Source of the DNA: Eledone cirrhosa
Lineage: Eukaryota
Length of the DNA: 64,000 bases
Direction: 5' to 3'
NCBI GenBank assembly: GCA_964016885.1
Contig: OZ024740.1
Coordinates: 257,486,001 to 257,550,000 of the forward strand
A model generated the notes under the pieces. It worked only from the letters and a program-made list of their open reading frames with translations. It was not told where the DNA came from and did not search any database. This document shows, piece by piece, positions 8,708 through 63,005 of this stretch; the first letter of the stretch is position 1; the number at the start of each line of letters is the position of its first letter. A program made the translations under genes and the position numbers.

Positions 8708-8813
8708 TAATCTGTTATTTTAATAAATATTTGCTCTACGGTTATTATATATTTGATATATATTTATCCTTATCGAGTTCTCTTTGGATTTTAGTCTTCA
8801 AATTTATTATTAT

Positions 8814-10039: not shown

Positions 10040-12432
<2,393 letters not shown>

Positions 12433-12435
<3 letters not shown>

Positions 12436-13170
12436 ATATAAGATCAAAAGATGGTTAAAAGAGATCCATGTATTTTATTATGCGCATTTCAAAAACAAAT
12501 ATCATCATGGGATGATATCTGCGTTCACACCAGATAAAATAGGGATACATGATATGAAGCTTAAAAAACACTTGTGAATAGTGAAGTTTTAAATCAACAT
12601 ATCATATATATCAACATATCATTATCCCTGTCTTATCTTATGAGAACGCAGATATCATCCCATGATGATATTTGTTTTTGAAATGCGCATAATAAAATTC
12701 TTGGAACTCTTTTAACCATCTTTTGCTCTTATATTATTTATACTCCAGTCCTACAAACCGTAGAGTGCTACTTATCCGATATTTGCATTGCTTTATTGTG
12801 CTACAATAAAACTCACCTCCTACATATGTATATATATAGAATAAGGAAAAGCGAAGTAGTTTCAGATGTTCAAGTCCTTTAATAATAATGCTGTGATATA
12901 TATTTCAACATATGTTGATTTAAAACTGCACTATCCACAAGTGTTTTCAACCTTCATATCATGTCTTCCTATTTTATCTGATGAAAACACAAATGTTATT
13001 GCATGATGATATTTGTTTTTGAAATGCGCATAATAAAATACATGGAACTCATTTAACCATCTTTTGATCTCATATATTATGTATACTCCAGTCCTACAAA
13101 CAGTAGAGTGCTTCTTATCCGATATCTGCATTGCTTTATTGTACTACAATAAAACTCACCTCTTACATAT
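12433..13170 (+). mobile_element. ORF-less HHR repeat: inverted copy plus ~341-bp tandem (retrozyme-like)
   Basis: 12433-12547 is inverted relative to 12622-12737; HHR copies at 12630 and 12971; bounded by (TA)n. Confidence 0.8.
12971..13039 (+). ncRNA. Type-I hammerhead ribozyme, canonical core, long stem II
   Basis: attttat CTGATGA [~15-bp hairpin] GAAA tgcgca TA ataaaat. Confidence 0.9.
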
Positions 13171-22955: not shown

Positions 22956-23729
22956 TTTAACGTGATTTAAACTATACTGCGCAACAAACGATTTGTGTCG
23001 CTTACATTGGGTTGAGAAGGCAAACACTTATGACCAATCAACGGTAAGCATCACTACCCATGGCTCACCATGCCCATCAAAAAGCTTTAATTCCTTGCAT
23101 GCAAGATCTCCACTTCCTTATTATTTTACTTCCTTCTATCCTTCTTTTCTTCTATTACATTTATCTTCTCCTCCTCCATTGGATGTGCATATTTATGTGT
23201 GTATATACTTATAAGGGGTATTTGATATATATATATATATATATATATATGTCCCAAGGCTCTGATACCATCAACACCATAAACACAGAGCTGACTAACT
23301 GCCTGATGAGATTCATAGCCATTCAATGGCTATCATCGAAATATATGTAGCAGTAAATAAAGGATCATGAGTTCATGCAATTGACTTATGTTTCGTCACT
23401 ATATATATACATATATATACACAATGATATTAAATAAATGGAAACTATATTTCTAAAAAAATATATTTATTCTATTATATATATTTCAAGGGTACAAAAA
23501 AAAAACTTTGGTACGCGTTCATCAGATAAGATACAAAGAGTGTTTTATAAATATTTACATAGCCAAGGAAATCATAACTTATCAGTTGAATTTTCTTGGG
23601 TAGTGAGATTAAAGGACGGATATTTCAAACTTATGGATAAATATGCAAATGATTATGTAAATAGGGTTGAGTTATATGATTGAAAACCCGTTATTTTAAA
23701 CGCTATGGAAAGTTTAGATATATAATAAT

Positions 23730-23917: not shown

Positions 23918-25136
23918 CGATATATAATAATAAGAGAGAAATAAAGAAGAAAGAAAAAAGAAAAGGAAAAATAAAGAGAAGGAAACGGAAAAGGAAGACC
24001 ACTTATAACGTTATATTGGGGGAAATGTATTCGAACATTTAGCTATATTATGTATATATTTATATGGAGAATTATGTTTGTGAGTATTTATCTTATATTG
24101 TAGTGGGTTAAATATATAAATATCTATATATATTTTAATAATAGCATATGTATTTTTATTAAAAGGATAATTTGCAATTATTAGTTGTTTATAATATGAG
24201 TTACGAGGCTGTTGATTTTGTGTTTTAAGTAGATAAATAAATAAAAAAATAAATAGGTAGTTCAAGTTTTAGGTTGTTGTTCTTAATATGAGTTACGAGG
24301 GTGTTGATTTTGTATTTTATGTAAATAAATATGTAGTTAAAATTGAGAATGTTTTAAATTAATTTAACGGAGTTAGGTATAACATTTATATGATTGAAAA
24401 GGAAAGATAACTCCGATTTTATTTGTTAATCGTTAGTGTGAGATTAATTAATTATTTAGTCGAAAGAAATATGAAACATCGTCTTGAATAGGATAGATTT
24501 TACTAAAATCAGTTAATGGTTATTAATCTACGTTTAAAAAATAGCTTTAGATAGTGTCATTGGAAAAATAAAGAATTAAGAAATTTAAAAAAATTAAAAA
24601 TTAAAAAAATTAAAAAATTAAAATAATAATTAAAATTCAAATTAGAATTATAAAAGATATACATAAATATATATAAATATCTATACACATATAAATAAAT
24701 ATATACATACATATTATAAGAAATATTTTTTCTAAATGCTGAAAGTACTACAAATATTAGAGATATTATGATTTAGAGATATTAATATTAAAAATATAAA
24801 TTGTTAAAGCAGATAGGATCATTTTAGAAATTAATAGGAATATTATAAGTATATTATAAGTTACATATAGTTCTGAATGTAGAATTTTGGCGATGTCTGC
24901 AGGAACTAAATAACTCTGTTCTGAGATTAATAGAGTTTTGACAGTTAATTATATAAAAAATTTCTTCAATACACAATTTACAGAATCTTGATAAAGCCGT
25001 GTTTCGGTACGCAGGTGCTTTCGAAACAGTTATAAACATATAAATTTGGTGTATTTCCAACAAATTAAATATCCCTTCTACTTATAAATAGCTCCTTTAA
25101 TGTTGAGCACTTTAAATTATAACTGATTGATAAATA

Positions 25137-27338
25137 ATGGAATTCTTTAGGATTTCTTCCTCTCTAAAAGATGTACCTAAGAATAAGGAATATCTAAAAC
25201 AACTCATTGAGAAATCTGACTCCTTTATACGATGACTTAGATGGCGTGCCTTCCATTTCGATAGAAAATCAGATGAAAAAATAAATAAATCCAGTTATAA
25301 CTTCGATCTTATCTTCAAATCTAAGAAGAATCCACCTAACTATAAACTATTAATTGAATTTGAAAATTATGTAATATCTATTATACAAAACATCAAATTC
25401 AAGAAAAAACAATTTGTAGGCCAGGAATACTCTAAAGGCCTCAAAAATAATATAAACAATCTTGAAAAAACTGAGAAGATCCTCGTAAAATCTGATAAAA
25501 CTAATCATCTATACGGATGCAAAAGGACGAATATAATAACCTTAAATTGAAAGAACTCAGAAAAAATTACAAAATAACAACTAATGAACATCATGGTACG
25601 TTAAATAGAGAAGCTTCTGAAATAATTCATAAATTAGTCATCCAAAATAGGACTGAAACCGTTATACCTAGAAGACCGAAAATTAACCTGAAAGACCACA
25701 AAAGAAACTTTGAAATAGAACTACCAGTCAAACTTATAGCACCATCTAAATCAGAATTAGGCATGATAGAATCATACCGCAACTTAAAGAAAAATCACAC
25801 CTGAAACTATGGAACGGGACTAATGAAGTTATAGATTGGTTCAATAACATCAAATTTAAACATAACAAAAAATTCATTCAAATGGATATTGCAAATTACT
25901 ACTCCTCTATTACTCCTAGTTTTCTCAATAGGGCTCTTATCTATGCATCTAAACATACAGATTTATATAGTGATGAAATGCATATCATTCGAACTGCGCG
26001 GAAAACTTTAATTGAATTCAACAATCGTCTCTGGACTGAAGCCGATAGAAAAAATAATTTTGATATCACTATGGGATCATCTGACTCGGCGCAAATAACG
26101 GATCTTTTGGGCTTATTTATTAATAATACACTGCATAGAAAAATGCCAGAGATGACCGGTGGTTTATATCGTGACGATATGCTGGTTTTAATTGAAAACC
26201 ATAGTAATTGTGAAATTAATAGGAAAAGAAAATCCATAATACTATTCTTCAATAATTATAACCTTAAGTTAGAAATAGAGAATAACAATAAAATCGTTAA
26301 CTTTTTAGACGTAACATTAAACCTGAACACAGGGCTCTACTATCCATTGCATAAAATTTATGAGAATCTAAATTACGTAACTTTTAACTCTAATCATCCT
26401 AGATCTATCAAGAACACTATTGTCAATAGTGTCCAACAACGAATTACCCACATCTATGTTAATAAAAATATGTTTGATGATAAGGCTGAATATTATAATG
26501 AAGATTTAAATAGAGGAGAGTATTTGAATAAAATTGAATACATTGACAACAATAATAAGGCAAATCACCCTACTATTAATTATAATAATAATAAACAATT
26601 TAATTTAAACTCTAAAACAAACAAAAGAACTAGAAATATTATTTGGTACTCAGCCCCATTCTCATTAAGCGTTAAAACACAATTAGCAAATCTATTCTTT
26701 AAAGCACTAGACAAATGTTTTCCAAAAGCCCACAGATACCACTCCATCCTTAACAGACATACTATAAAACTATCCTACTCTACTACATAGCACAAAATAT
26801 AAATAGAATTAATAATAGAAATTTAAATTTAAACCCTAACCAAAATAACCATAATAGCAATAATAATATTTCTAGCAATATCCAACCTAATAGTACCGTT
26901 CCGAGCAACAACAAGTCCGTAAAATGTAACTGTAGAATCAAATCCAACTGCCCTTTACAAAATAAGTGTTTAGATAAATGCAGAGTTAAAACTAGTGATA
27001 ATATATTTAACTATGTCAGACCCACTATTAAAAAAATTAAAGATCGCTGGAATAACGACAATCACTCTTTCAAAAGATCTGATAAAATATCTTCTACTTC
27101 CATTTCACATCTTATATGGAACTTAAAAAGCAAGAATATAGACTATTCAATATCTTGGAAAACTATTTCAAAGGCACCTGCGTACCGAAACACGGCTTTA
27201 TCAAGATTCTGTAAATTGTTTATTGAAGAAATTTTTTATATAATTAAATGTCAACACTCTATTAATCTCAGGACAGAGTTATTTAGTTCCTGCAGACATC
27301 GCCAAAATTCTACATTCAGAACTATATGTAACTTATAA
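25137..27338 (+). pseudogene. PLE RT + GIY-YIG polyprotein with stops and frameshifts
   Basis: MEFF..SLKDVPK..FIR*LRWRA, LKDHK, QMDIANYYSSI, MGSSDSAQITDL, GGLYRDD, CNCRIKSNCPL, SSCRHR. Confidence 0.92.
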
Positions 27339-28403: not shown

Positions 28404-28471
28404 TTTTATCTGATGAAAGCGTACCAAAGTTTTTTTTTTTTTTTGGTACCCTTGAAATATATATAATAGAA
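28404..28471 (+). ncRNA. Type-I hammerhead ribozyme, family C pLTR
   Basis: tttat CTGATGA aag-c-gtaccaaa..ttggtac-c-ctt GAAA tatata TA ataga; inverted copy at 23471-23530. Confidence 0.85.
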
Positions 28472-28609
28472 TAAATGTGGTTTTATAAATATAGTTTCCA
28501 TTTATTTCATATCATTGAATATTTACTCCAGAAAACTGTCGAGTGCTCTGAATCCGTTATAAACATTTATATTTGTTGTATTTCCAATAAATTAAATATC
28601 CCTTCTACT

Positions 28610-28660
<51 letters not shown>

Positions 28661-36486: not shown

Positions 36487-36539
<53 letters not shown>

Positions 36540-37040
36540 TAAACAAATAATGAACAAACAATTCCTTATATTAAACAAAAAAAGTTCACTATTTAACGAT
36601 CGTTTCTAGGGTATATATGTGTTATAATTGGTATGCATATTTAACAGATCTATGTACAAAATTATATAAAATTATACAAATTATCAAGATTAAATATACA
36701 TACCTAACTCATATATACGCCGTCTTCAGAAATAATGAAGTATATTTATTGATAATAACAACAATTCAAAATATCAGTTCAAAATTGACCAATGAAAACA
36801 CAAAGGGTTAAAAAGCAGTTTGGTGTGTGTATATACATGTAAAAACCTTACACATATTTTACAATAATGTGTGTATAATTTGTATGTGCATACTAAAAAG
36901 ATGGATGCAAATATAAAATTTCAAGGTTAATATCTCTGTAAGCTTAATGCGCTGATAAGATACGCAATGATACTTATGGAGTCAAGCATATAAATATATT
37001 TTTTTCATACTCACACATATCAGTATAATCACACATACAT

Positions 37041-39083
37041 GTGCGTATATGTATAAATATACACATAACCACGAACACACAAACACACATACTCAACAAC
37101 AAAACACACAACATAGTAAAAAAACTAAATATTGAAGATAGAACTGAACCTTTGGCATTGAGAAGTCCACACTTCAACCTGAAAGATCACAAATCTAACT
37201 TTAACTCTAATCCTTCTATTAGACTTATATGTCCCTCCAAATCAGATATTGGAATAATTAGCAAAAAAATTTTAGATAGAGTCATCCCACAAATAAGAAA
37301 ATACGTTATTTTACCACTCTGGGAAAACACCTCCCAGGTAATTAATTGGTTTAAAAATATTAGGTGTAAATCTTCTGCTTCTTTCCTACAGTTTGATATA
37401 GATAATTACTATTCTTCTATATCACCCATACTCCTGAACAAAGCATTAATATTTGCTAAAAATAGATCTAATTTAACTTCGGATGACATTAACATTATTA
37501 CACATGCTAGACAAACACTTATTGAATTTCAGAATGAATACTGGACCAGAAACACTTATAGTAATCTTTTTGATATTACTATGGGTTCAAGCGATTCTGC
37601 CCAAATTACTGATCTTGTGGGCCTCTTTCTCCTTTTCAACATAAATGCCTCTTTTCCCCACCTCAAAGGTGGTTTATATCGTGATGACTGTCTTCTTCTT
37701 TCTAACAACCTTAGCCTTTCAGAAATCGAAAAAAACAAAAAGCATATTAGAACTTTCCTTAAAGACTATTATAATCTTAATATTACTTTTGAAAAAACAA
37801 GTAAAGTAGTAAATTTCCTAGATATAACTTTAGATTTAGCTACGGGTATATACCAACCTTACCATAAACCTAACCAAAACTTACATTACATACACTCACA
37901 ATCTAATCACCCTAAATCTATCCTTAAAAACCTTGCATATAATATATCACTTAGAATTTCTAACCTTTCTTCTAACCAAGATGTATTTGATAAAAATGCG
38001 ACCTTTTATAATGAAGCTCTAGATAGAAGTGGCCACAAAAATAGATTAGAGTATATACCTTCTACTAAAAATACTGAAAGCATACAGCATAATATTACCA
38101 ACAAACACCAAATGAAAAGTACACACCTAAATGCCACCCACAGTATACCCCAAAATACTAAATCTTCTAATATAAAGTATAGTAACCCTCAAAAAAATAC
38201 TCATCATACGACTATAATAAATATTAATAATAAAACTCCTAATAAAAAAGATAAAACACCTAAATCTACAAATATAACTAAAAATAGTTGTGGTGAGATC
38301 ATTAACATTATTCCTCCTAGTAAAAATCATAATACAACATATAAAAATAATAAAAATAATAAACAACATAGAAACCGTAATAGACGAGTTACTTGGTATA
38401 ATGCTCCTTTTAATTTACAAGTTAAGGATAATATTGCTAAAAAATTTTTTTATATCCTTGAGAAAAACTTCCCGCCAAACCACAAATACCATCAAATCTT
38501 AAATAGGTCTACAGTTAAATTCTCATACTCTACAACAAATAACATAAAACAAAATATAAGTGCATATAATGCATATAAATGTAAGAAAACCATAAGTATA
38601 CCACCAGTACATCAAATTAACAATAATATCTCCTCAAATACAGAATTAACGAAAGGATGTAACTGTAGAAACAAAACAAACTGCCCATTAAAAGGGAATT
38701 GTCTTGTTAACAACATAGTCTATAAATGTAATGTTAAAACTAAAGATTCTATTTGCTCATATATAGGAGCTACCTCTAACAATTTTAAGACAAGGTATAA
38801 TACCCACAAACATAGCTTTAAAAATGCCGCACTGGCTAATACAACATCTCTAGCAGAAAAAATCAATAGTTATAAAAATAAAAATATAAAATATGATTTG
38901 ACCTGGAGTGTGCTCAAAAGAGCCACCCCTTATCAAAATAATAGAAAGGAATGTAGATTATGTTCCCAAGAACTATTTGAAATAATGAAGTCTAGGGATA
39001 TCTTATTAAATAAAAGACAGGAATTAATTATATCGTGTAATCATAAACTAAAAAAAACATTTAAATATTATAAACCTAATTAA
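37041..39083 (+). CDS. PLE reverse transcriptase + GIY-YIG endonuclease; open frame, native N-terminus missing
   Basis: LKDHK, QFDIDNYYSSI, MGSSDSAQITDLVG, GGLYRDD, VNFLDITL, SNHP, CNC..CPL..CL, IVYKC..YIG, CRLC..E, LLNKRQE..CNH; first ~18 aa come from the inverted pLTR. Confidence 0.93.
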   Translation: MRICINIHITTNTQTHILNNKTHNIVKKLNIEDRTEPLALRSPHFNLKDHKSNFNSNPSIRLICPSKSDIGIISKKILDRVIPQIRKYVILPLWENTSQVINWFKNIRCKSSASFLQFDIDNYYSSISPILLNKALIFAKNRSNLTSDDINIITHARQTLIEFQNEYWTRNTYSNLFDITMGSSDSAQITDLVGLFLLFNINASFPHLKGGLYRDDCLLLSNNLSLSEIEKNKKHIRTFLKDYYNLNITFEKTSKVVNFLDITLDLATGIYQPYHKPNQNLHYIHSQSNHPKSILKNLAYNISLRISNLSSNQDVFDKNATFYNEALDRSGHKNRLEYIPSTKNTESIQHNITNKHQMKSTHLNATHSIPQNTKSSNIKYSNPQKNTHHTTIININNKTPNKKDKTPKSTNITKNSCGEIINIIPPSKNHNTTYKNNKNNKQHRNRNRRVTWYNAPFNLQVKDNIAKKFFYILEKNFPPNHKYHQILNRSTVKFSYSTTNNIKQNISAYNAYKCKKTISIPPVHQINNNISSNTELTKGCNCRNKTNCPLKGNCLVNNIVYKCNVKTKDSICSYIGATSNNFKTRYNTHKHSFKNAALANTTSLAEKINSYKNKNIKYDLTWSVLKRATPYQNNRKECRLCSQELFEIMKSRDILLNKRQELIISCNHKLKKTFKYYKPN

Positions 39084-42293: not shown

Positions 42294-42444
42294 CATTATT
42301 TCTGAAGACGGCGTATATATGAGTTAGGTATGTATATTTAATCTTGATAATTTGTATAATTTTATATAATTTTGTACATAGATCTGTTAAATATGCATAC
42401 CAATTATAACACATATATACCCTAGAAACGATCGTTAAATAGTG
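42294..42444 (+). ncRNA. Type-I hammerhead with ~115-nt stem II/loop 2 (family B)
   Basis: cattattt CTGAAGA cggcgtatatatg...catatataccc-ta GAAA cgatcg TT aaatagtg; inverted copy at 36587-36737. Confidence 0.75.
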
Positions 42445-42631
42445 AACTTTTTTTGTTTAATATAAGGAATTGTTTGTTCATTATTTGTTTAATATTTTAT
42501 CTTGACTCTGTATACCGTTTATCTTTCACCGAAATTGGATTTTCATTACATCTCTTCTTTCCATGATATCCGGAATACATTGAGTTCTTCATACGGATTG
42601 GACACTACCGTAAACTCTTGGTAGATTTATC

Positions 42632-48128: not shown

Positions 48129-49648
48129 TGTGATACAGGAATTAGATAAAAAATGAGATCAATTAAATATTATAATCAATAATGAAAAATATATTAAAGG
48201 AGCAAAATGCACAGAGGTATACACAGGGAGTTGTGGGGTCTATTATGTATGAAGAACTCAATGTAATCCATATGTTGAAAATGTTGTAGGTTAAGATAAA
48301 TCTCAGAAAACAATAAAATATTAAAAGAAAAACAGAGTCATGATATAAGTTAAAACAATTAAATAAAAAAATCAAGTCATTGGAGATATACTTCACTGCT
48401 TTAAGATCGTTTCTAGATGATGATAATACATTGTAACTATACTCAGATATTGATCTATGTAAGTTTACAAACTATCAGATAGAGAGAATATTTACTTACA
48501 TGCATATCACCAGCTGTTTTCAAAATAAATAATAATTTTATTCAATAATAATTTTACTCAGAATTAGTATCATGTCCATATTTGGAGGTAGTTGAAGAAC
48601 TAAGGAATCAAATTGTTTTTTTCATATGGTGTTAAGATGAAAAAGTAATACACTTTAGTTGAGGTCATGGCCCTTTGAAAGAAATGGTTGAAAGGTGTTA
48701 GTAGAAATGGCATAACAATCTATTAGGAAGGAAGGGGATTTTCAAACTGATAGTTGAATGTATCTTGTATAGTGAATTGAAAAGGAATCTCAAAATAAAT
48801 GGTGATTAGTGTTGTATTGAGTTTTAAGGTGAATATGAATTAATGTTATGGCTAGGAAAGATAGTATATTAAAAGATGAAAATTATAATAAGATGATGTG
48901 ATATAGCAATGCGATAATATACAACTTAAACAAGAGAATATAGTACGGTGTGGTAAATTGCACTCAGTATAATATAACATATTATACGCTCTAAAATATT
49001 ACGAAGTATGTTTATGCATAAACAATCAAACTCAGATAAGTACATGTTGGCATAGTTAAAACACATAAATTTCATAGTCTACAAAGTGCATATATTCACA
49101 CTACATATAGAGAGAGGTACAGTTATATTGATATCTAACCAAAATATACATACGTGCAAATAGATGCAAAACTAAATACACATCCACACCCATGCATATA
49201 ATCATATATATACATATCCATACATATCTATATCCACACATACACATCTATACCCCCACATATACATATACATATACATATACACACATATATATATACA
49301 TATATATATATATATACACACTCATACATATATACATATATACATGTACATACATATAGACACACACATACATACATATATACATACACATATACAAATA
49401 TATACATATATATACATATATGTACATATACATATGTATACATATACATGCATATATATATATACATATACAACACACACACACATACACATATATATAT
49501 ACACACTTGTGTGAGCATATGTACACTCCTCTTACATGTGCACATACTCATATATAAACATTCATACGCCTATACTCACATATACACACACACACATGCA
49601 TACACAAACACACACACACATACACACACATATATATACACATACATA

Positions 49649-50722: not shown

Positions 50723-51755
50723 TTGTGTATATGTATATATGGGGGTATAGATGTGTATGTGAGGATATAGATACGTATGGATATGGATATATATGATTAT
50801 ATGCATGGGTGTGGATGTGTATTTAGGTTTGCATCTATTTGCACGTATGTATATTTTGGTTAGATATCAATATAACTGTACCTCCCTCTATATGTAGTGT
50901 GAATATATGCACTTTGTAGACTATGAAATTTATGTTTTTTAACTCTGCCAACATGTACTTATCTGAGTTTGATTGTTTATGCATAAACATACTTAGTAAT
51001 ATTTTAGAGCCTAAAATATGTTATAGTATACTGAGTGCAATTTACCACACTGTACTATATTCTGTTGGTTAAGTTGTATATTATCGCATTACTATATCTC
51101 ATTATCTTATTATAATGTTCATCTTTTAATATACTATCTTTCCTAGCCATAACATTAATTTATATTCACCTTTAAACTCAATACAACACTAATCACCATT
51201 TATTTTGACATTCCATTTCAATTCACTATACAAGATACATTCAACTCTCAGTTTGACCATCCCCTTCCTTCCTAATAGATTTTTATGCCATTTCTACTAA
51301 CACCTTTCAACCATTCCTGTCATGACCTCAACTAAAGTGTATTACTTTTTATCTTAACACCATATGAAGAAAAAAGACAATTTGATTCGTTAGTTCTTCA
51401 ACTACCTCCAAATATGGACATGATACTAATTCTGAGTAAACTTATTGCTTTTGAAAACAGCTGCTGATATGCATGTAAGTAAATATTCTCTCTGTCTGAT
51501 AGTTTGTAACCTTACATAGAACAACTGAGTATAGATACAATGTATTATCACCATCTAGAAACGACCGTAAAGCAGTGAAGTATATCTCTAAGGACTTGAT
51601 TTTTTATTTCATTGCTTTAACTTATATCATGACTCTGTCTTTCCTTCTAATGTTTTATTGTTTTCTGACATTTATCTTAACCTACAACATTTTCAACATA
51701 TGGATTACATATAGTTCTTCATACAGAATAGACCCCACAACTTATAGTGCATACG

Positions 51756-52009: not shown

Positions 52010-52364
52010 CTTATATATATATATATATATAAGTTAAAACAATGAAATAAAAAATCAGGTCATTAGAGATATACTTCACTGCTTTACGATCGTTTCTAGA
52101 TGGTAATAATACATTGTATCTATATTCAGTTATTGATCTATGTAAATTTACAAACTATCAGATAGAGAGAATATTTACTTACATGCATATCACGAGCTGT
52201 TGACTTGATTTTTTATTTCATTGTTTTAACTTATATCATGACTCTGTTTTCCTTTTAATGTTTTTTGTTTTCTGAGATTTATCTTAACCTACAACATTTT
52301 CAACATATGGATTACATTGAGTTCTTCATACAGAATAGACCCCACAACTTACAATGGATACCTC

Positions 52365-52666: not shown

Positions 52667-52835
52667 GAGGTATTCACTGTAAGTGGTGGGGTCTATTCTG
52701 TATGAAGAACTCAATGTAATCCATATGTTGAAAATGTTGTAGGTTAAGATAAATCTCAGAAAACAATAAAACATTAAAACATTAAAAGGAATACAGAGTC
52801 ATGATATGAGTTAAAATAATGAAATAAAAAATGAA

Positions 52836-53459: not shown

Positions 53460-54701
53460 TTCAGAAAGATTCCCCAAAGAATTCATCTTGGAAGGACTTA
53501 AATTAGTATTGGAAAACAACCACTTCCTCTTTGACAACGAACTTTATCTACAAATAAAAGGAACAGCCATGGGTACCAAAGTGGCCCCTACATATGCAAC
53601 GTTCGTTATGGGTCACTTAGAGGCAAAATTATATTCCCAACTACAGATAACATTCAGTCACGACTTCGCCTTCTACATTAATAAAAACTGGAAACGTTAC
53701 CTAGATGTTATTCGATCTTAAACAGGCTTCATGAAGCTATACAATTCACTATGGAATGTAATGAAAAGGAACTGCCCTTTCTACATATCCTCATCATTAA
53801 AGAAGGGGAAAATATCATAACGGACCTATTTTGCAAACCCACTGACACACACCAATACTTAAATTTCCGGTCAGCACACCCCTCACATACGAAAAGGAAC
53901 ATTCCCTTCAACATGGCAAGGCGCATCTGCACTATAGCAACACGCCCCGTACTACAAGAAAAAAGATTATGTGACCTGAAAAAATTCCTTAAAAAACAAG
54001 AATACCCGATGAAACTCATCAACGCAGCCATCTCCAAGGCTAAGAACATCCCAATAACAACACTGAGAAAACCAAACCCACAACATAAAAAAGAAAACCC
54101 TGCTATCTCTTTTGTCATCACTCACAACCCAGGGAACATCAACATTGTGAAAACTGCTAAGCAGTATCTCCCGATTCTACAGCAATCTACCAAAATGAAT
54201 GCACTCTTAAAAAACACACAGATCATTTATAGCAGACGCCAAGCACCCAAACTTAAAAAACTAATTACCAAGGCAAAATTTACGACCAACATGGAATCAA
54301 TGCAAGTGACGAAATGCGGGGACCCTAGATGTGGAACCTGTGAACTCATCGAAGAGGGCAAACAGTTGTCCTTCAAAAACCATGATAATTTCAAGGTCAA
54401 TGCAAACATGAACTGCAAAACGAAAAACCTAATATATTGCGCAACATGTCCACAGTGTAAAGAGTATTACATTGGGGAAACCGGAACGGGATTACATGAT
54501 AGAGTCCGGGTACATAAACAACAAATTAAAGACCCCACAGTCAGAAATAGCACATGTAGCGCACACTTTGCATCATGCGGGAAGGGAAAATTCACAATCT
54601 TCCCTTTCTTCAAGATATGGTCGGATAACGAACATTTCCGCAGATATAAAGAAGAATTCTTCATTGAAAAATTTAAACCACTACTGAACACGAAAAAATG
54701 A
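53460..54701 (+). pseudogene. Neptune-type PLE RT + Zn-linker + GIY-YIG; 5'-truncated, deletion at YLDD
   Basis: LENNHF..QIKGTAMGTKVAPTYA, WKRYLD|, KPTDTHQYL..SAHP, CGDPRCGTC, NLIYCATCPQC..YIGET, EEFFIEKFKPLLN. Confidence 0.9.
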
Positions 54702-56260: not shown

Positions 56261-56521
56261 ATAAATATGGTTTTGTAGGTGTAGTTTCCATTTGTTTAAT
56301 ATCGTAAAATACTCCAAAATCTGTTGAGTGCTTTTATATCAGTTATAAAATATTTACTCGTTGTAACCCAACAATTTTAAATAAAACTTTTGCATATATA
56401 TATATATATATATGTAAGTATGAATACCTGCCATTTCAAGCTTTAAGCTCATATATTCCTTCCATTTACTGTACCGATTCTGTTGTTATTTCTGTTTACC
56501 TTTTACATACATGTATATATA

Positions 56522-61310: not shown

Positions 61311-61401
61311 CTTACTTGTTCCTATTACCCACTCTACTACCCTAAGTATTGAGTACTTTGGTGCGTTATGGTTCACCTGGTTCCTTACCACATTTCCTTT
61401 G

Positions 61402-61464
<63 letters not shown>

Positions 61465-61469
<5 letters not shown>

Positions 61470-62935
61470 CATCCACAGAATTTAGTAAAATCCATGGAAA
61501 AATCTATAGACCTTTAACTCATGATAAAACAAAGTTTGAAACACTTATCCTTCAATTTGGAATAACATCAAATGCTCTGTATAGTCTTAAAAGACTATTT
61601 CATGAAAACTTTCAGTGGAGATGGTCACGGTTGGAACATCATTCATCAGCAGAGCTCAACAGAAAACCAGGGCTCTCACAGTAATATAGTCCGAAAAAGG
61701 GAATTCTAAAACTGGCTAGTTCGCCTTCATGTGTATTTATGAAAAAGCACATGAGGAAAAAACGGGGCTAGTGACGTCAGGATGGAAGTGAATGTTTATT
61801 TACAAGAAATAGCAGTCAAATACATTCTGAAAAAAAACTCTACAAGGAGTTCAGCAAAATAGCAATAATTATCACAGTTTTTATGAAAAAAACCGGGACT
61901 AGTCACAGATAGTTTAAGCACTCTAGGAAAAGAATCCGAGTATAAATATAAATGAGACGTATAGAGATTGTTTTAGCAAGAAGCTAACGGCATTCTATAA
62001 CATATATGCGACTATAACGTCAAGATGGGAAAAGTAGTTAACGAAAGATTTAGGAAATATAACTCAAACTCATCTCAAAAGAGAATCAGGATACAAATTC
62101 ATCCACAGAATTTAGTAAAATCCATGGAAAAATCTATAGACCTTTAACTCATGATAAACAAAGTTTGAAACACTTATCCTTCAATTTGGAATAACATCAA
62201 ATGCTCTGTATAGTTTTAAAAGACTATTTCATGAAAACTTTCAGTGGAGATGGTCACGGTTGGAACATCATTCATCAGCAGAGCTCAACAGAAAACCAGG
62301 GCTCTCACAGTAATATAGTCCGAAAAAGGGAATTCTAAAACTGGCTAGTTCGCCTTCATGTGTATTTATGAAAAAGCACATGAGGAAAAAACGGGGCTAG
62401 TGACGTCAGGATGGAAGTGAATGTTTATTTACAAGAAATAGCAGTCAAATACATTCTGAAAAAAAACTCTACAAGGAGTTCAGCAAAATAGCAATAATTA
62501 TCACAGTTTTTATGAAAAAAACCGGGATTAGTCACAGATAGTTTAAGCACTCTAGGAAAAGAATCCGAGTATAAATATAAATGAGACGTATAGAGATTGT
62601 TTTAGCAAGACTTCTGATGAATGATATTCCAACCGTGACCATCTCCACTGAACGTTTTCATGAAATAGTCTTTTAAGACTATACAGAGCATTTGATGTTA
62701 TTCCAAATTGAAGGATAAGTGTTTCAAACTTTGTTTTATCATGAGTTAAAGGTCTATAGATTTTTCCATGGATTTTACTAAATTCTGTGGATGAATTTGT
62801 ATCCTGATTCTCTTTTGAGATGAGTTTGAGTTATTTTTCCTAAATCTTTCGTCAACTACTTTTCCCATCTTGACGTTATAGTCGCATATATGTTATAGAA
62901 TGCCGTTAGTTTCTTGCTAAAACAATCTCTATACG

Positions 62936-62941
<6 letters not shown>
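61465..62941 (-). mobile_element. ORF-less HHR repeat: ~630-bp tandem plus inverted copy (retrozyme-like)
   Basis: Units 61465-62094 and 62095-62610; 62614-62941 is the reverse complement of ~61952-62278; flanked by (TA)n. Confidence 0.88.
61574..61655 (-). ncRNA. Type-I hammerhead ribozyme, canonical core
   Basis: gctctg CTGATGA atga...tcat GAAA tagtctt-tt-aagacta TA cagagc; second copy at 62203-62284. Confidence 0.9.

Positions 62942-63005
<64 letters not shown>

What the first reader, a model, noticed from the sequence alone, without database searches (positions are those of the whole stretch)
28525..28547. Second conserved RNA structure in Naiad-type pLTRs: bulged hairpin RCUC-stem-UH-GAGY-N-CU just 3' of the hammerhead
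Seen: seven otherwise dissimilar HHR-bearing repeats carry the same fold 25-70 nt downstream of the predicted cleavage site. C 28525 ACTC cag-aaaa-ctg TC GAGT gCT; E 61331 ACTC tact..agta TT GAGT aCT; B 42505-42588 ACTC tgtat..ataca TT GAGT tCT; D 52241-52325 ACTC tgt..aca TT GAGT tCT; A 8733-8781 GCTC ta..ta TC GAGT tCT; ORF-less unit 12742 and 13085 ACTC cag..c(c/a)g TA GAGT gCT; solo pLTR 56311 ACTC ca..tg TT GAGT gCT. Inner stems covary, the apical part ranges from 4 to ~60 nt, and the 2-nt 3' bulge is constant. I did not find it after the Neptune-type HHRs. Inference: a clade-specific cis element near the 5' end of the self-cleaved RNA, such as an RT binding or priming signal (loosely analogous to HBV epsilon or telomerase RNA elements). 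It could also license ORF-less units for trans-mobilisation. I know of no description of it.
Basis: partly seen in the sequence, partly recalled or inferred. Interest (0 to 1): 0.9.

Follow-up and report, generated by a model that had tools for sequence, protein, structure and literature searches.

The report
Twin hairpins set retroelement copying starts
A small predicted RNA hairpin sits twice in front of the gene of Hydra-type Penelope jumping elements, and in the two-ended insertions scored one end stops a few bases before the first hairpin and the other end before the second, so the pair likely tells two copies of the element's enzyme where to start copying.

Summary
The motif is real (10 strict hits in the window versus 0.15 in shuffles), but its hosts are Hydra-clade, not Naiad, Penelope-like elements, and it comes in pairs: hammerhead, hairpin H1, spacer, hairpin H2, ATG. 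In protein-picked relatives from other sources 46 of 53 junction regions carry at least one copy, 32 both; inner pairs covary when sites are picked without using pairing. Insertion ends lie within about 9 nt 5' of H1 or H2 (67 of 67 terminal copies in family B). In 60 of 60 scorable two-ended insertions from six families, one end is at H1 and the other at H2, whichever arm is longer. Best reading (0.72): each hairpin docks one reverse transcriptase of a likely dimer, and the two cut DNA ends are primed at the two sites; the H1-H2 spacing is the unexplained Penelope 'tail'. One abundant family lacks a canonical hammerhead yet keeps both hairpins. The bulge matches the TAR/7SK arginine-sandwich pattern in secondary structure only. 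No RNA or binding data. Not found in seven paper searches or Rfam. This scan noted the twin-hairpin reading before, on other pieces of this genome.

The parts
28525..28547 (+). Hairpin H1 of element C (the finding): 4-bp outer stem, 3-bp inner stem, 2-nt 3' bulge, NCU tail
28410..28465 (+). Type I hammerhead of element C, core start to predicted cleavage site, 59 nt before H1
28548..28610 (+). Spacer after H1 up to the right insertion end of C, which stops 7 nt before the position of H2 and meets (TA)n
25091..25111 (+). Hairpin H2 of element C at the pLTR-ORF junction, 25 nt before the ATG at 25137
25137..27338 (+). Decayed Hydra-clade ORF of element C (RT then GIY-YIG)
23422..23729 (-). Outer part of the inverted left arm of C; ends 7 nt before the position of H1
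37029..39083 (+). 5'-truncated Hydra-clade ORF of element B (684 aa; full ORF frame 830 aa in genomic arrays)
42302..42436 (+). Hammerhead of B with long stem II
42505..42588 (+). H1 of B with long apical extension; right end of B at about 42637 is 5 nt before H2
36531..37094 (-). Inverted left arm of B; ends 4 nt before H1
52241..52325 (+). H1 of family D; its inverted arm (52027 side) ends 4 nt before H1
48253..48338 (-). H1 of a D copy at a pLTR-ORF junction
48154..48203 (-). Degenerate H2 of that D copy, before the ATG
52706..52799 (-). Further H1 copy of family D
8733..8781 (+). H1 of family A
12742..12769 (+). H1 (mutated inner pair) of family U, a coding Hydra family
13085..13112 (+). 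H1 (mutated inner pair) of family U; left end of this insertion at 12428 is at the H1 site, right end at the H2 site
56311..56332 (+). H1 of family S (solo end piece)
61331..61357 (+). H1 of family E, which has no canonical hammerhead
62546..62570 (-). Hairpin of the non-coding 629-bp tandem unit (family G)
61917..61941 (-). Second unit's copy of the family G hairpin

Best explanation
Hydra-clade Penelope-like elements carry two copies of one bulged hairpin motif between the hammerhead and the start codon, their insertions end a few bases 5' of one or the other copy, and each copy likely docks one reverse transcriptase of a predicted dimer so that the two cut ends of a (TA)n target would each be primed at one site. 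Shown: the two copies, their covariation, the two end sites 0-9 nt 5' of them in an AU-rich stretch, one end at each site per insertion, either arm the longer. Inferred: a read-through RNA spanning a tandem junction is bound at H1 and H2; the GIY-YIG domains cut both strands of (TA)n; each 3'-OH pairs with the AU-rich bases just 5' of a hairpin; both cDNAs run toward the RNA 5' end and are joined head to head by microhomology. This gives an inverted repeat in which only the arm started at H2 carries H1 plus spacer, the 'tail'. Weaker inference (about 0.35): the bulge is read by arginines as an arginine sandwich, as in TAR and 7SK, by the basic run before W[FY]NPP or the RxRW[KR] motif.
For: Pairs: 32 of 53 protein-picked junction regions have both copies, 46 at least one; strict scan 43 of 61 sense, 0 of 61 antisense, 0 of 61 coding, 5 of 1,220 shuffles. 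Also by eye in published consensi of coral, sea cucumber (two) and, as a variant, a copepod. Covariation with pairing-blind picking: inner pairs 1-4 Watson-Crick in 91/103, 61/97, 44/64, 24/47 versus 52, 28, 16, 12.5 permuted; G-U 23 versus A-C 9; inner pair 1 of H1 swaps U-A/C-G at least 8 times on the protein tree, at least 4 forced by well-supported branches. Ends: family B 67 of 67 terminal copies 3-9 nt before H1 or H2; S 33 of 33 at two sites, D 42 of 45; other sources 14 of 26 within -7..+1 of a detected hairpin. End spacing follows hairpin spacing: 138 nt in B, about 134 in D, 55-83 elsewhere. One end at each site in B 30/30, S 11/11, D 11/11, U 5/5, A 2/2, C 1/1. In 3 of 8 clearly asymmetric B insertions the deeper arm has the H1 end and the short arm the tail, so neither arm is a simple copy of the other. 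In a Poseidon element, two internal RT start sites bound the tail, both strands are cut and extended, and a dimer is predicted (PMC11167929).
Against: The short hairpins are weak: predicted energies -3.5 to -6.7 kcal/mol, no better than antisense, and the lowest-energy fold differs from the proposed one for E, S and U. H2 inner pair 1 is nearly invariant (no covariation signal, p 0.11) and inner pair 2 is often U-U. Conservation of the outer stem and bulge U is partly built into my search patterns. 12 of 26 ends in other sources were not at a detected hairpin (two sit at an H1 that lost its first base); a looser tally of B left 6 of 66 ends elsewhere (five at +224, one at -55; not inspected). 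H2 of family S was not found, so its long end is assigned by analogy. A one-sided tail was already known, so the pairing rule alone does not choose between RT starts and trimming. Some copies may be segmental duplicates (one D pair was merged for that reason).
Confidence: 0.72

Rival explanations
1. The hairpins act on DNA: one cDNA is made, folds back and is copied, and the endonuclease recognises the motif in the intermediate and trims one arm at the AT-rich site before H1, leaving a one-sided tail.
For: Craig et al. ascribe the tail to endonuclease-mediated resolution; self-priming was proposed from palindromic junctions (PMC3846280); the D. virilis endonuclease needed the tail to cut (cited); both end sites are AT-rich.
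Against: Either arm can be the trimmed one and in 3 of 8 cases the short arm holds sequence the long arm lacks, which needs the first-made strand to be cut at its own primed end; G-U outnumbers A-C on the sense strand 23 to 9; in vitro the tail bounds are RT start sites.
Confidence: 0.15
2. The pair is mainly a translation or transcription control element (for example the protein binds its own leader), and the end sites are set by neighbouring AU-rich stretches alone.
For: H2 ends 12-42 nt before the ATG in 50 loci; PLE pLTRs hold promoters.
Against: Non-coding units keep both hairpins; ends keep a narrow offset from each hairpin although AU-rich sequence is everywhere and the spacing varies from 55 to 138 nt. 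Not exclusive of the best reading.
Confidence: 0.08
3. The hairpin is an auxiliary domain of the hammerhead or marks the 5' end of the cleaved RNA.
For: H1 lies 38-57 nt after the cleavage site in 25 loci.
Against: Family E keeps both hairpins and intact tandem ORFs without a canonical hammerhead; there are two copies; family B arms extend past the cleavage site; cleavage was dispensable in vitro for a Poseidon element.
Confidence: 0.04

Closest known systems
Hydra clade of C-terminal EN+ Penelope-like elements (Craig et al. 2021, PMC8557442)
   Same: RT then GIY-YIG, CxCX5C linker, CxxC and CxH around the conserved E and N, RW[KR] motif, (TA)n targets, hammerheads, inverted arms with a one-sided tail.
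   Different: The passages, section and supplement parts read describe no second RNA motif; the tail there is 30-40 bp and put down to endonuclease resolution; here it is 55-138 nt and equals the H1-H2 spacing.
Internal two-site RT initiation in Poseidon_Ac (Frangieh et al. 2024, PMC11167929)
   Same: Two internal start sites bound the tail; both DNA strands are cut and extended; dimer predicted; hammerhead cleavage not needed.
   Different: Other clade; start in an AC-rich stem-loop inside the ORF; no repeated positioning element named; no rule of one site per end.
3' tail stem-loop of stringent LINEs and partner SINEs (ZfL2, UnaL2; PMC4176376 abstract, PMC1636434 listing)
   Same: Small conserved stem-loop near the RT start, shared by non-autonomous partners, bound by basic residues of the element's protein.
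   Different: There one stem-loop lies 5' of the start and is copied; here two copies each lie 3' of a start site, and H2 is never copied into the end it sets.
Arginine sandwich motif of HIV-1 TAR and 7SK (Pham et al. 2018, PMC6189040)
   Same: Paired purine, then bulged U, then G-C, A-U, G-C pairs: the order given for A22, U23, G26, A27-U38, G28.
   Different: The closing loop is on the opposite side; two loci swap the A-U pair; no triple or arginine binding shown.
L1 twin priming and the two-subunit R2 reaction (recalled, not read here)
   Same: Both target ends prime or are handled by two subunits on one RNA.
   Different: L1 twin priming has no fixed second site and gives no inverted duplication of the end.
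HBV epsilon; telomerase RNA stems bound by TERT (recalled)
   Same: Bulged stem as RT docking site; the predicted Hydra protein's best fold matches are telomerases.
   Different: In epsilon the bulge is the template; here junctions lie outside the hairpin. No sequence or model match to telomerase RNA was shown.

Membership tests
Naiad clade | GIY-YIG endonuclease N-terminal to RT | tested here: not met
   EN is C-terminal in B, C, D, E, A remnants
Naiad clade | Motif present in published Naiad consensi | tested here: not met
   Six common 9-mers of the 3' arm occur 7 times in the supplement: 4 in Hydra hairpins, 1 in a Naiad stretch and 2 in Chlamys stretches without the hairpin; line breaks hide about one in nine
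Hydra clade | C-terminal EN with CxCX5C linker, CxxC and CxH motifs | tested here: met
Hydra clade | N-terminal RW[KR] motif | tested here: met
   full B frame; 75-78 of about 80 aligned relatives per column
Hydra clade | Insertion into (TA)n | tested here: met
Hydra clade | Canonical hammerhead in the pLTR | tested here: inconclusive
   met in B, C, U; U3-A8 variant in D; absent in E
Hydra clade | Placement in an RT tree with reference clades | not tested
   tree holds only relatives of the query
Rfam families | Match at gathering score | tested here: not met
   0 hits in 15 loci; the 150 of 212 window matches shown were all below gathering score
Stringent LINE 3' stem-loop | Single stem-loop 5' of the RT start and copied into every insertion | tested here: not met
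   two copies, each 3' of an end
Stringent LINE 3' stem-loop | Bound by the element's own protein | not testable with these tools
   needs binding assay
Arginine sandwich motif | Watson-Crick pair directly before a bulged pyrimidine, then G-C and A-U pairs | tested here: met
   inner pair 1 WC 91/103, bulge U 101/103, U-A at outer pair 3 95/103 (partly fixed by the search pattern); definition
Arginine sandwich motif | Base triple and arginine intercalation | not testable with these tools
   needs NMR or structure
HBV epsilon-like priming signal | First nucleotides templated by the bulge (recalled) | tested here: not met
   junctions 3-9 nt 5' of the stem base in B

The most novel reading that the evidence does not exclude
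Endonuclease-bearing Penelope-like elements integrate by concerted double target-primed reverse transcription: a dimer clamps two TAR-like bulged hairpins on one RNA and primes both cut DNA ends at once, each just 5' of a hairpin, which explains the tail and the inverted arms; other clades do the same with their own repeated signal (a short repeat follows both ends of the Neptune family here). The 25-nt hairpin would be a portable start signal for a telomerase-related RT.
Probability: 0.5. Interest if true: 0.9.

Novelty: new variant of a known kind. Interest (0 to 1): 0.8.

Why it matters
How Penelope-like elements, the closest relatives of telomerase RT, choose their start site and why they leave inverted arms with a one-sided tail is an open question named in PMC8557442 and PMC11167929. 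The twin hairpins give a defined, mutable signal with a sharp prediction (start a few nt 5' of each hairpin, one per DNA end) and a young family with at least 150 copies identical over the endonuclease domain to test it with. It also gives a marker for annotating Hydra-clade ends and their non-coding partners, and, if portable, a way to aim RNA-templated insertion.

Tried and rejected
Rfam on the window gave only repeat-driven matches below gathering score among those shown and nothing on 15 loci. A single-protein scan of metagenome contigs found nothing; the alignment scan did. The Neptune search gave 30 loci of one family; hairpin hits there were nested Hydra pieces or chance. A DNA search for family U returned nothing, so U was scored from loci already held. 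The first D search overlapped the inverted arm and had to be rescored. A two-copy complex prediction of residues 1-490 of a Hydra protein gave no verdict (score 0.00). The monomer model is confident (pLDDT 91.6) and matches telomerases best but does not locate the RNA site. SECIS was considered and dropped: no in-frame UGA in the B frame and no SECIS-like pattern was sought further. Genome-wide counts of end pairs and RNA reads were not obtained. No covariance model was built because the apical part varies from 5 to about 110 nt; anchored counts were used.

Full report
OBSERVATION. The motif is at every coordinate named. A strict scan gives 10 hits in the window against 0.15 (max 2) in 60 block shuffles; the two copies at 12742 and 13085 fail it through a broken inner pair. 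The window lies in a 3.0-Gb genome (host not identified), where the pairing-free pattern has 269,577 matches against 59,394 for the reversed control. In 130 kb of unselected stretches there were 9 hits, 6 followed by a TA run within 80 nt.

HOST ELEMENTS. The ORFs upstream of the sites are RT followed by GIY-YIG, with a CxCX5C linker and CxxC/CxH motifs. This is the Hydra clade of Craig et al. 2021 (PMC8557442; abstract, passages, section 11, supplement parts 1, 2, 52, 53 and one search read); Naiads have the endonuclease in front. By eye the hairpin is in three of the six new Hydra consensi there (coral, two sea cucumber; two copies before the ATG in one) and as a variant in a fourth; two end before it or are unclear. 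The 'ORF-less unit' is the end of a coding family. Family E has no canonical hammerhead in 1,279 nt. One Neptune family tested lacks the motif.

TWO COPIES. A tandem array of family B shows the order hammerhead, H1, insertion end, H2, ATG; element C has the same in the window (H2 at 25091-25111); so do E, A, U and three further families. For a motif-independent sample I aligned 81 of 121 proteins held and fetched 90 loci by protein alone. Among the 61 with at least 100 nt before the ORF, a strict scan hit 43 on the sense strand, 0 antisense, 0 in coding controls and 5 of 1,220 shuffles. With a descriptor needing one inner pair, 32 of the 53 loci with at least 140 nt had both copies, 14 one, 7 none, several of these lacking the junction. 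Spacings: cleavage to H1 38-57 nt (n 25), H1 to H2 55-83 (n 36), H2 to ATG 12-42 (n 50); H1 to H2 is 138 in B.

STRUCTURE. Sites picked by sequence alone (103 distinct, 66 loci; about a tenth mis-picked and kept in) show inner pairs 1-4 Watson-Crick in 91/103, 61/97, 44/64 and 24/47 against 52, 28, 16 and 12.5 after permutation; pair 5 shows nothing; G-U 23 versus A-C 9. Inner pair 1 of H1 changes between U-A and C-G at least 8 times on a quick tree of 47 proteins, at least 4 forced by well-supported branches. The outer stem varies little: A-U for G-C at pair 1, mostly in H1 of this genome, and A-U for U-A at pair 3 in two loci. Against: short copies fold weakly and not always as drawn; H2 often has U-U at inner pair 2. 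The core is five pairs, a UH bulge and an NCU tail.

ENDS. Of the first 30 family B copies by position, 1 was a junction and 29 ended 4-9 nt before H1 (16) or 3-5 nt before H2 (13); 36 more ends from 20 regions chosen as outward-facing neighbours, blind to end type, and the window's two ends did the same. A looser BLAST tally gave 59 of 66 at the two sites, one read-through and six elsewhere, not inspected; S 33 of 33 at two sites (H2 not found for S); D 42 of 45. In other sources 14 of 26 non-truncated ends lay within -7..+1 of a detected hairpin. Where both ends of an insertion could be scored, one was at the H1 site and the other at the H2 site: B 30 of 30, S 11 of 11, D 11 of 11 (two more had one aberrant end; one duplicate merged), U 5 of 5, A 2 of 2, C 1 of 1; U and A came partly from loci picked for having H1. 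Independent choice would give half concordant. In 8 B insertions with arms differing by over 300 nt, the deeper arm had the H2 end in 5 and the H1 end in 3 (one further pair could not be scored).

MECHANISM. Shown: two motif copies, two end sites, one per end, either arm longer. Inferred: each hairpin docks one RT; the cut (TA)n ends pair with the AU-rich bases 5' of the hairpins; two cDNAs are made from one RNA and joined by microhomology; the tail is the H1-H2 interval. Frangieh et al. 2024 (PMC11167929; parts 1-2 of 4 read) found in a Poseidon element two internal start sites bounding the tail, cutting and extension of both strands, a predicted dimer and no need for hammerhead cleavage, but named no repeated positioning signal. 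The main rival is trimming of a fold-back intermediate by the endonuclease (PMC8557442; PMC3846280, passages). It needs the first-made strand to be cut at its own primed end in the 3 cases above. The bulge has the order of residues given for the arginine sandwich of TAR and 7SK (PMC6189040, passages), with the loop on the other side; Hydra proteins have a conserved basic run before W[FY]NPP and an RxRW[KR] motif. That link is a lead only. The predicted protein fold matches telomerases best.

NOVELTY. Seven full-text searches and Rfam showed no description of the hairpin pair. Read besides: the 2026 retrozyme preprint (10.64898/2026.07.22.740005; parts 1-3 of 5, supplements closed), passages of PMC7229834 and PMC4209133, the abstract of PMC4176376. 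Subscription papers, Repbase notes, figures and unread supplements may hold it. L1 twin priming, R2 and HBV epsilon are recalled. The scan's own notes give the same twin-hairpin reading for other pieces of this genome; my reading was written before that look-up and those notes are not independent support. A second look-up found no note with the dimer, opposite-end and arginine terms together.

VERDICT. Real, misassigned in clade and in its reference point, and more informative than first stated. New variant of a known kind (RT-recognition stem-loop); interest 0.8; best mechanism 0.72.

Noticed in passing
window 53685-54701; L311-L317: A Neptune-type family has two ends about 36 nt apart, each in AATAT and followed by a short repeat around TGTAC; two of two scorable insertions (L284, L312) have one end at each. 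It may be another clade's version of the twin signal.
   Followed up: partly
L311-L317: In all seven Neptune copies fetched, the 795-796-aa RT-EN frame starts right after a TGA and an upstream ORF begins at the junction; read-through, frameshift or an intron was not examined.
   Followed up: no
L237-L280, family B: In 11 of 22 two-ended insertions the inversion centre lies about 206-220 nt before H1, at the 5' strand of hammerhead stem I; possibly a transcript start.
   Followed up: partly
window 61331; L319: Family E is very abundant and has intact tandem ORFs but no canonical hammerhead in its 3' UTR.
   Followed up: partly
window 51590-51630 region; L331-L360: Family D hammerhead carries the U3-A8 compensatory core variant in 26 of 28 copies (variant described in PMC4209133).
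   Followed up: partly
L318 (1.3-kb unit); window 61462-62952 (629-bp unit): Non-coding tandem units with hammerhead and both hairpins (one degenerate in the 629-bp unit): likely retrozyme-type passengers of Hydra elements.
   Followed up: partly
L218-L220; L201-L214: Satellites whose short units (about 60 and 42 bp) each contain one hairpin-like motif.
   Followed up: no
L158-L170: Hydra-clade elements sit in contigs of several bacterial metagenome-assembled genomes; likely host DNA carried into the bins.
   Followed up: no
G000 family B: At least 150 copies are identical over the 147-aa endonuclease part, many with the full 830-aa frame and in 6-kb tandem arrays: a very young family.
   Followed up: partly
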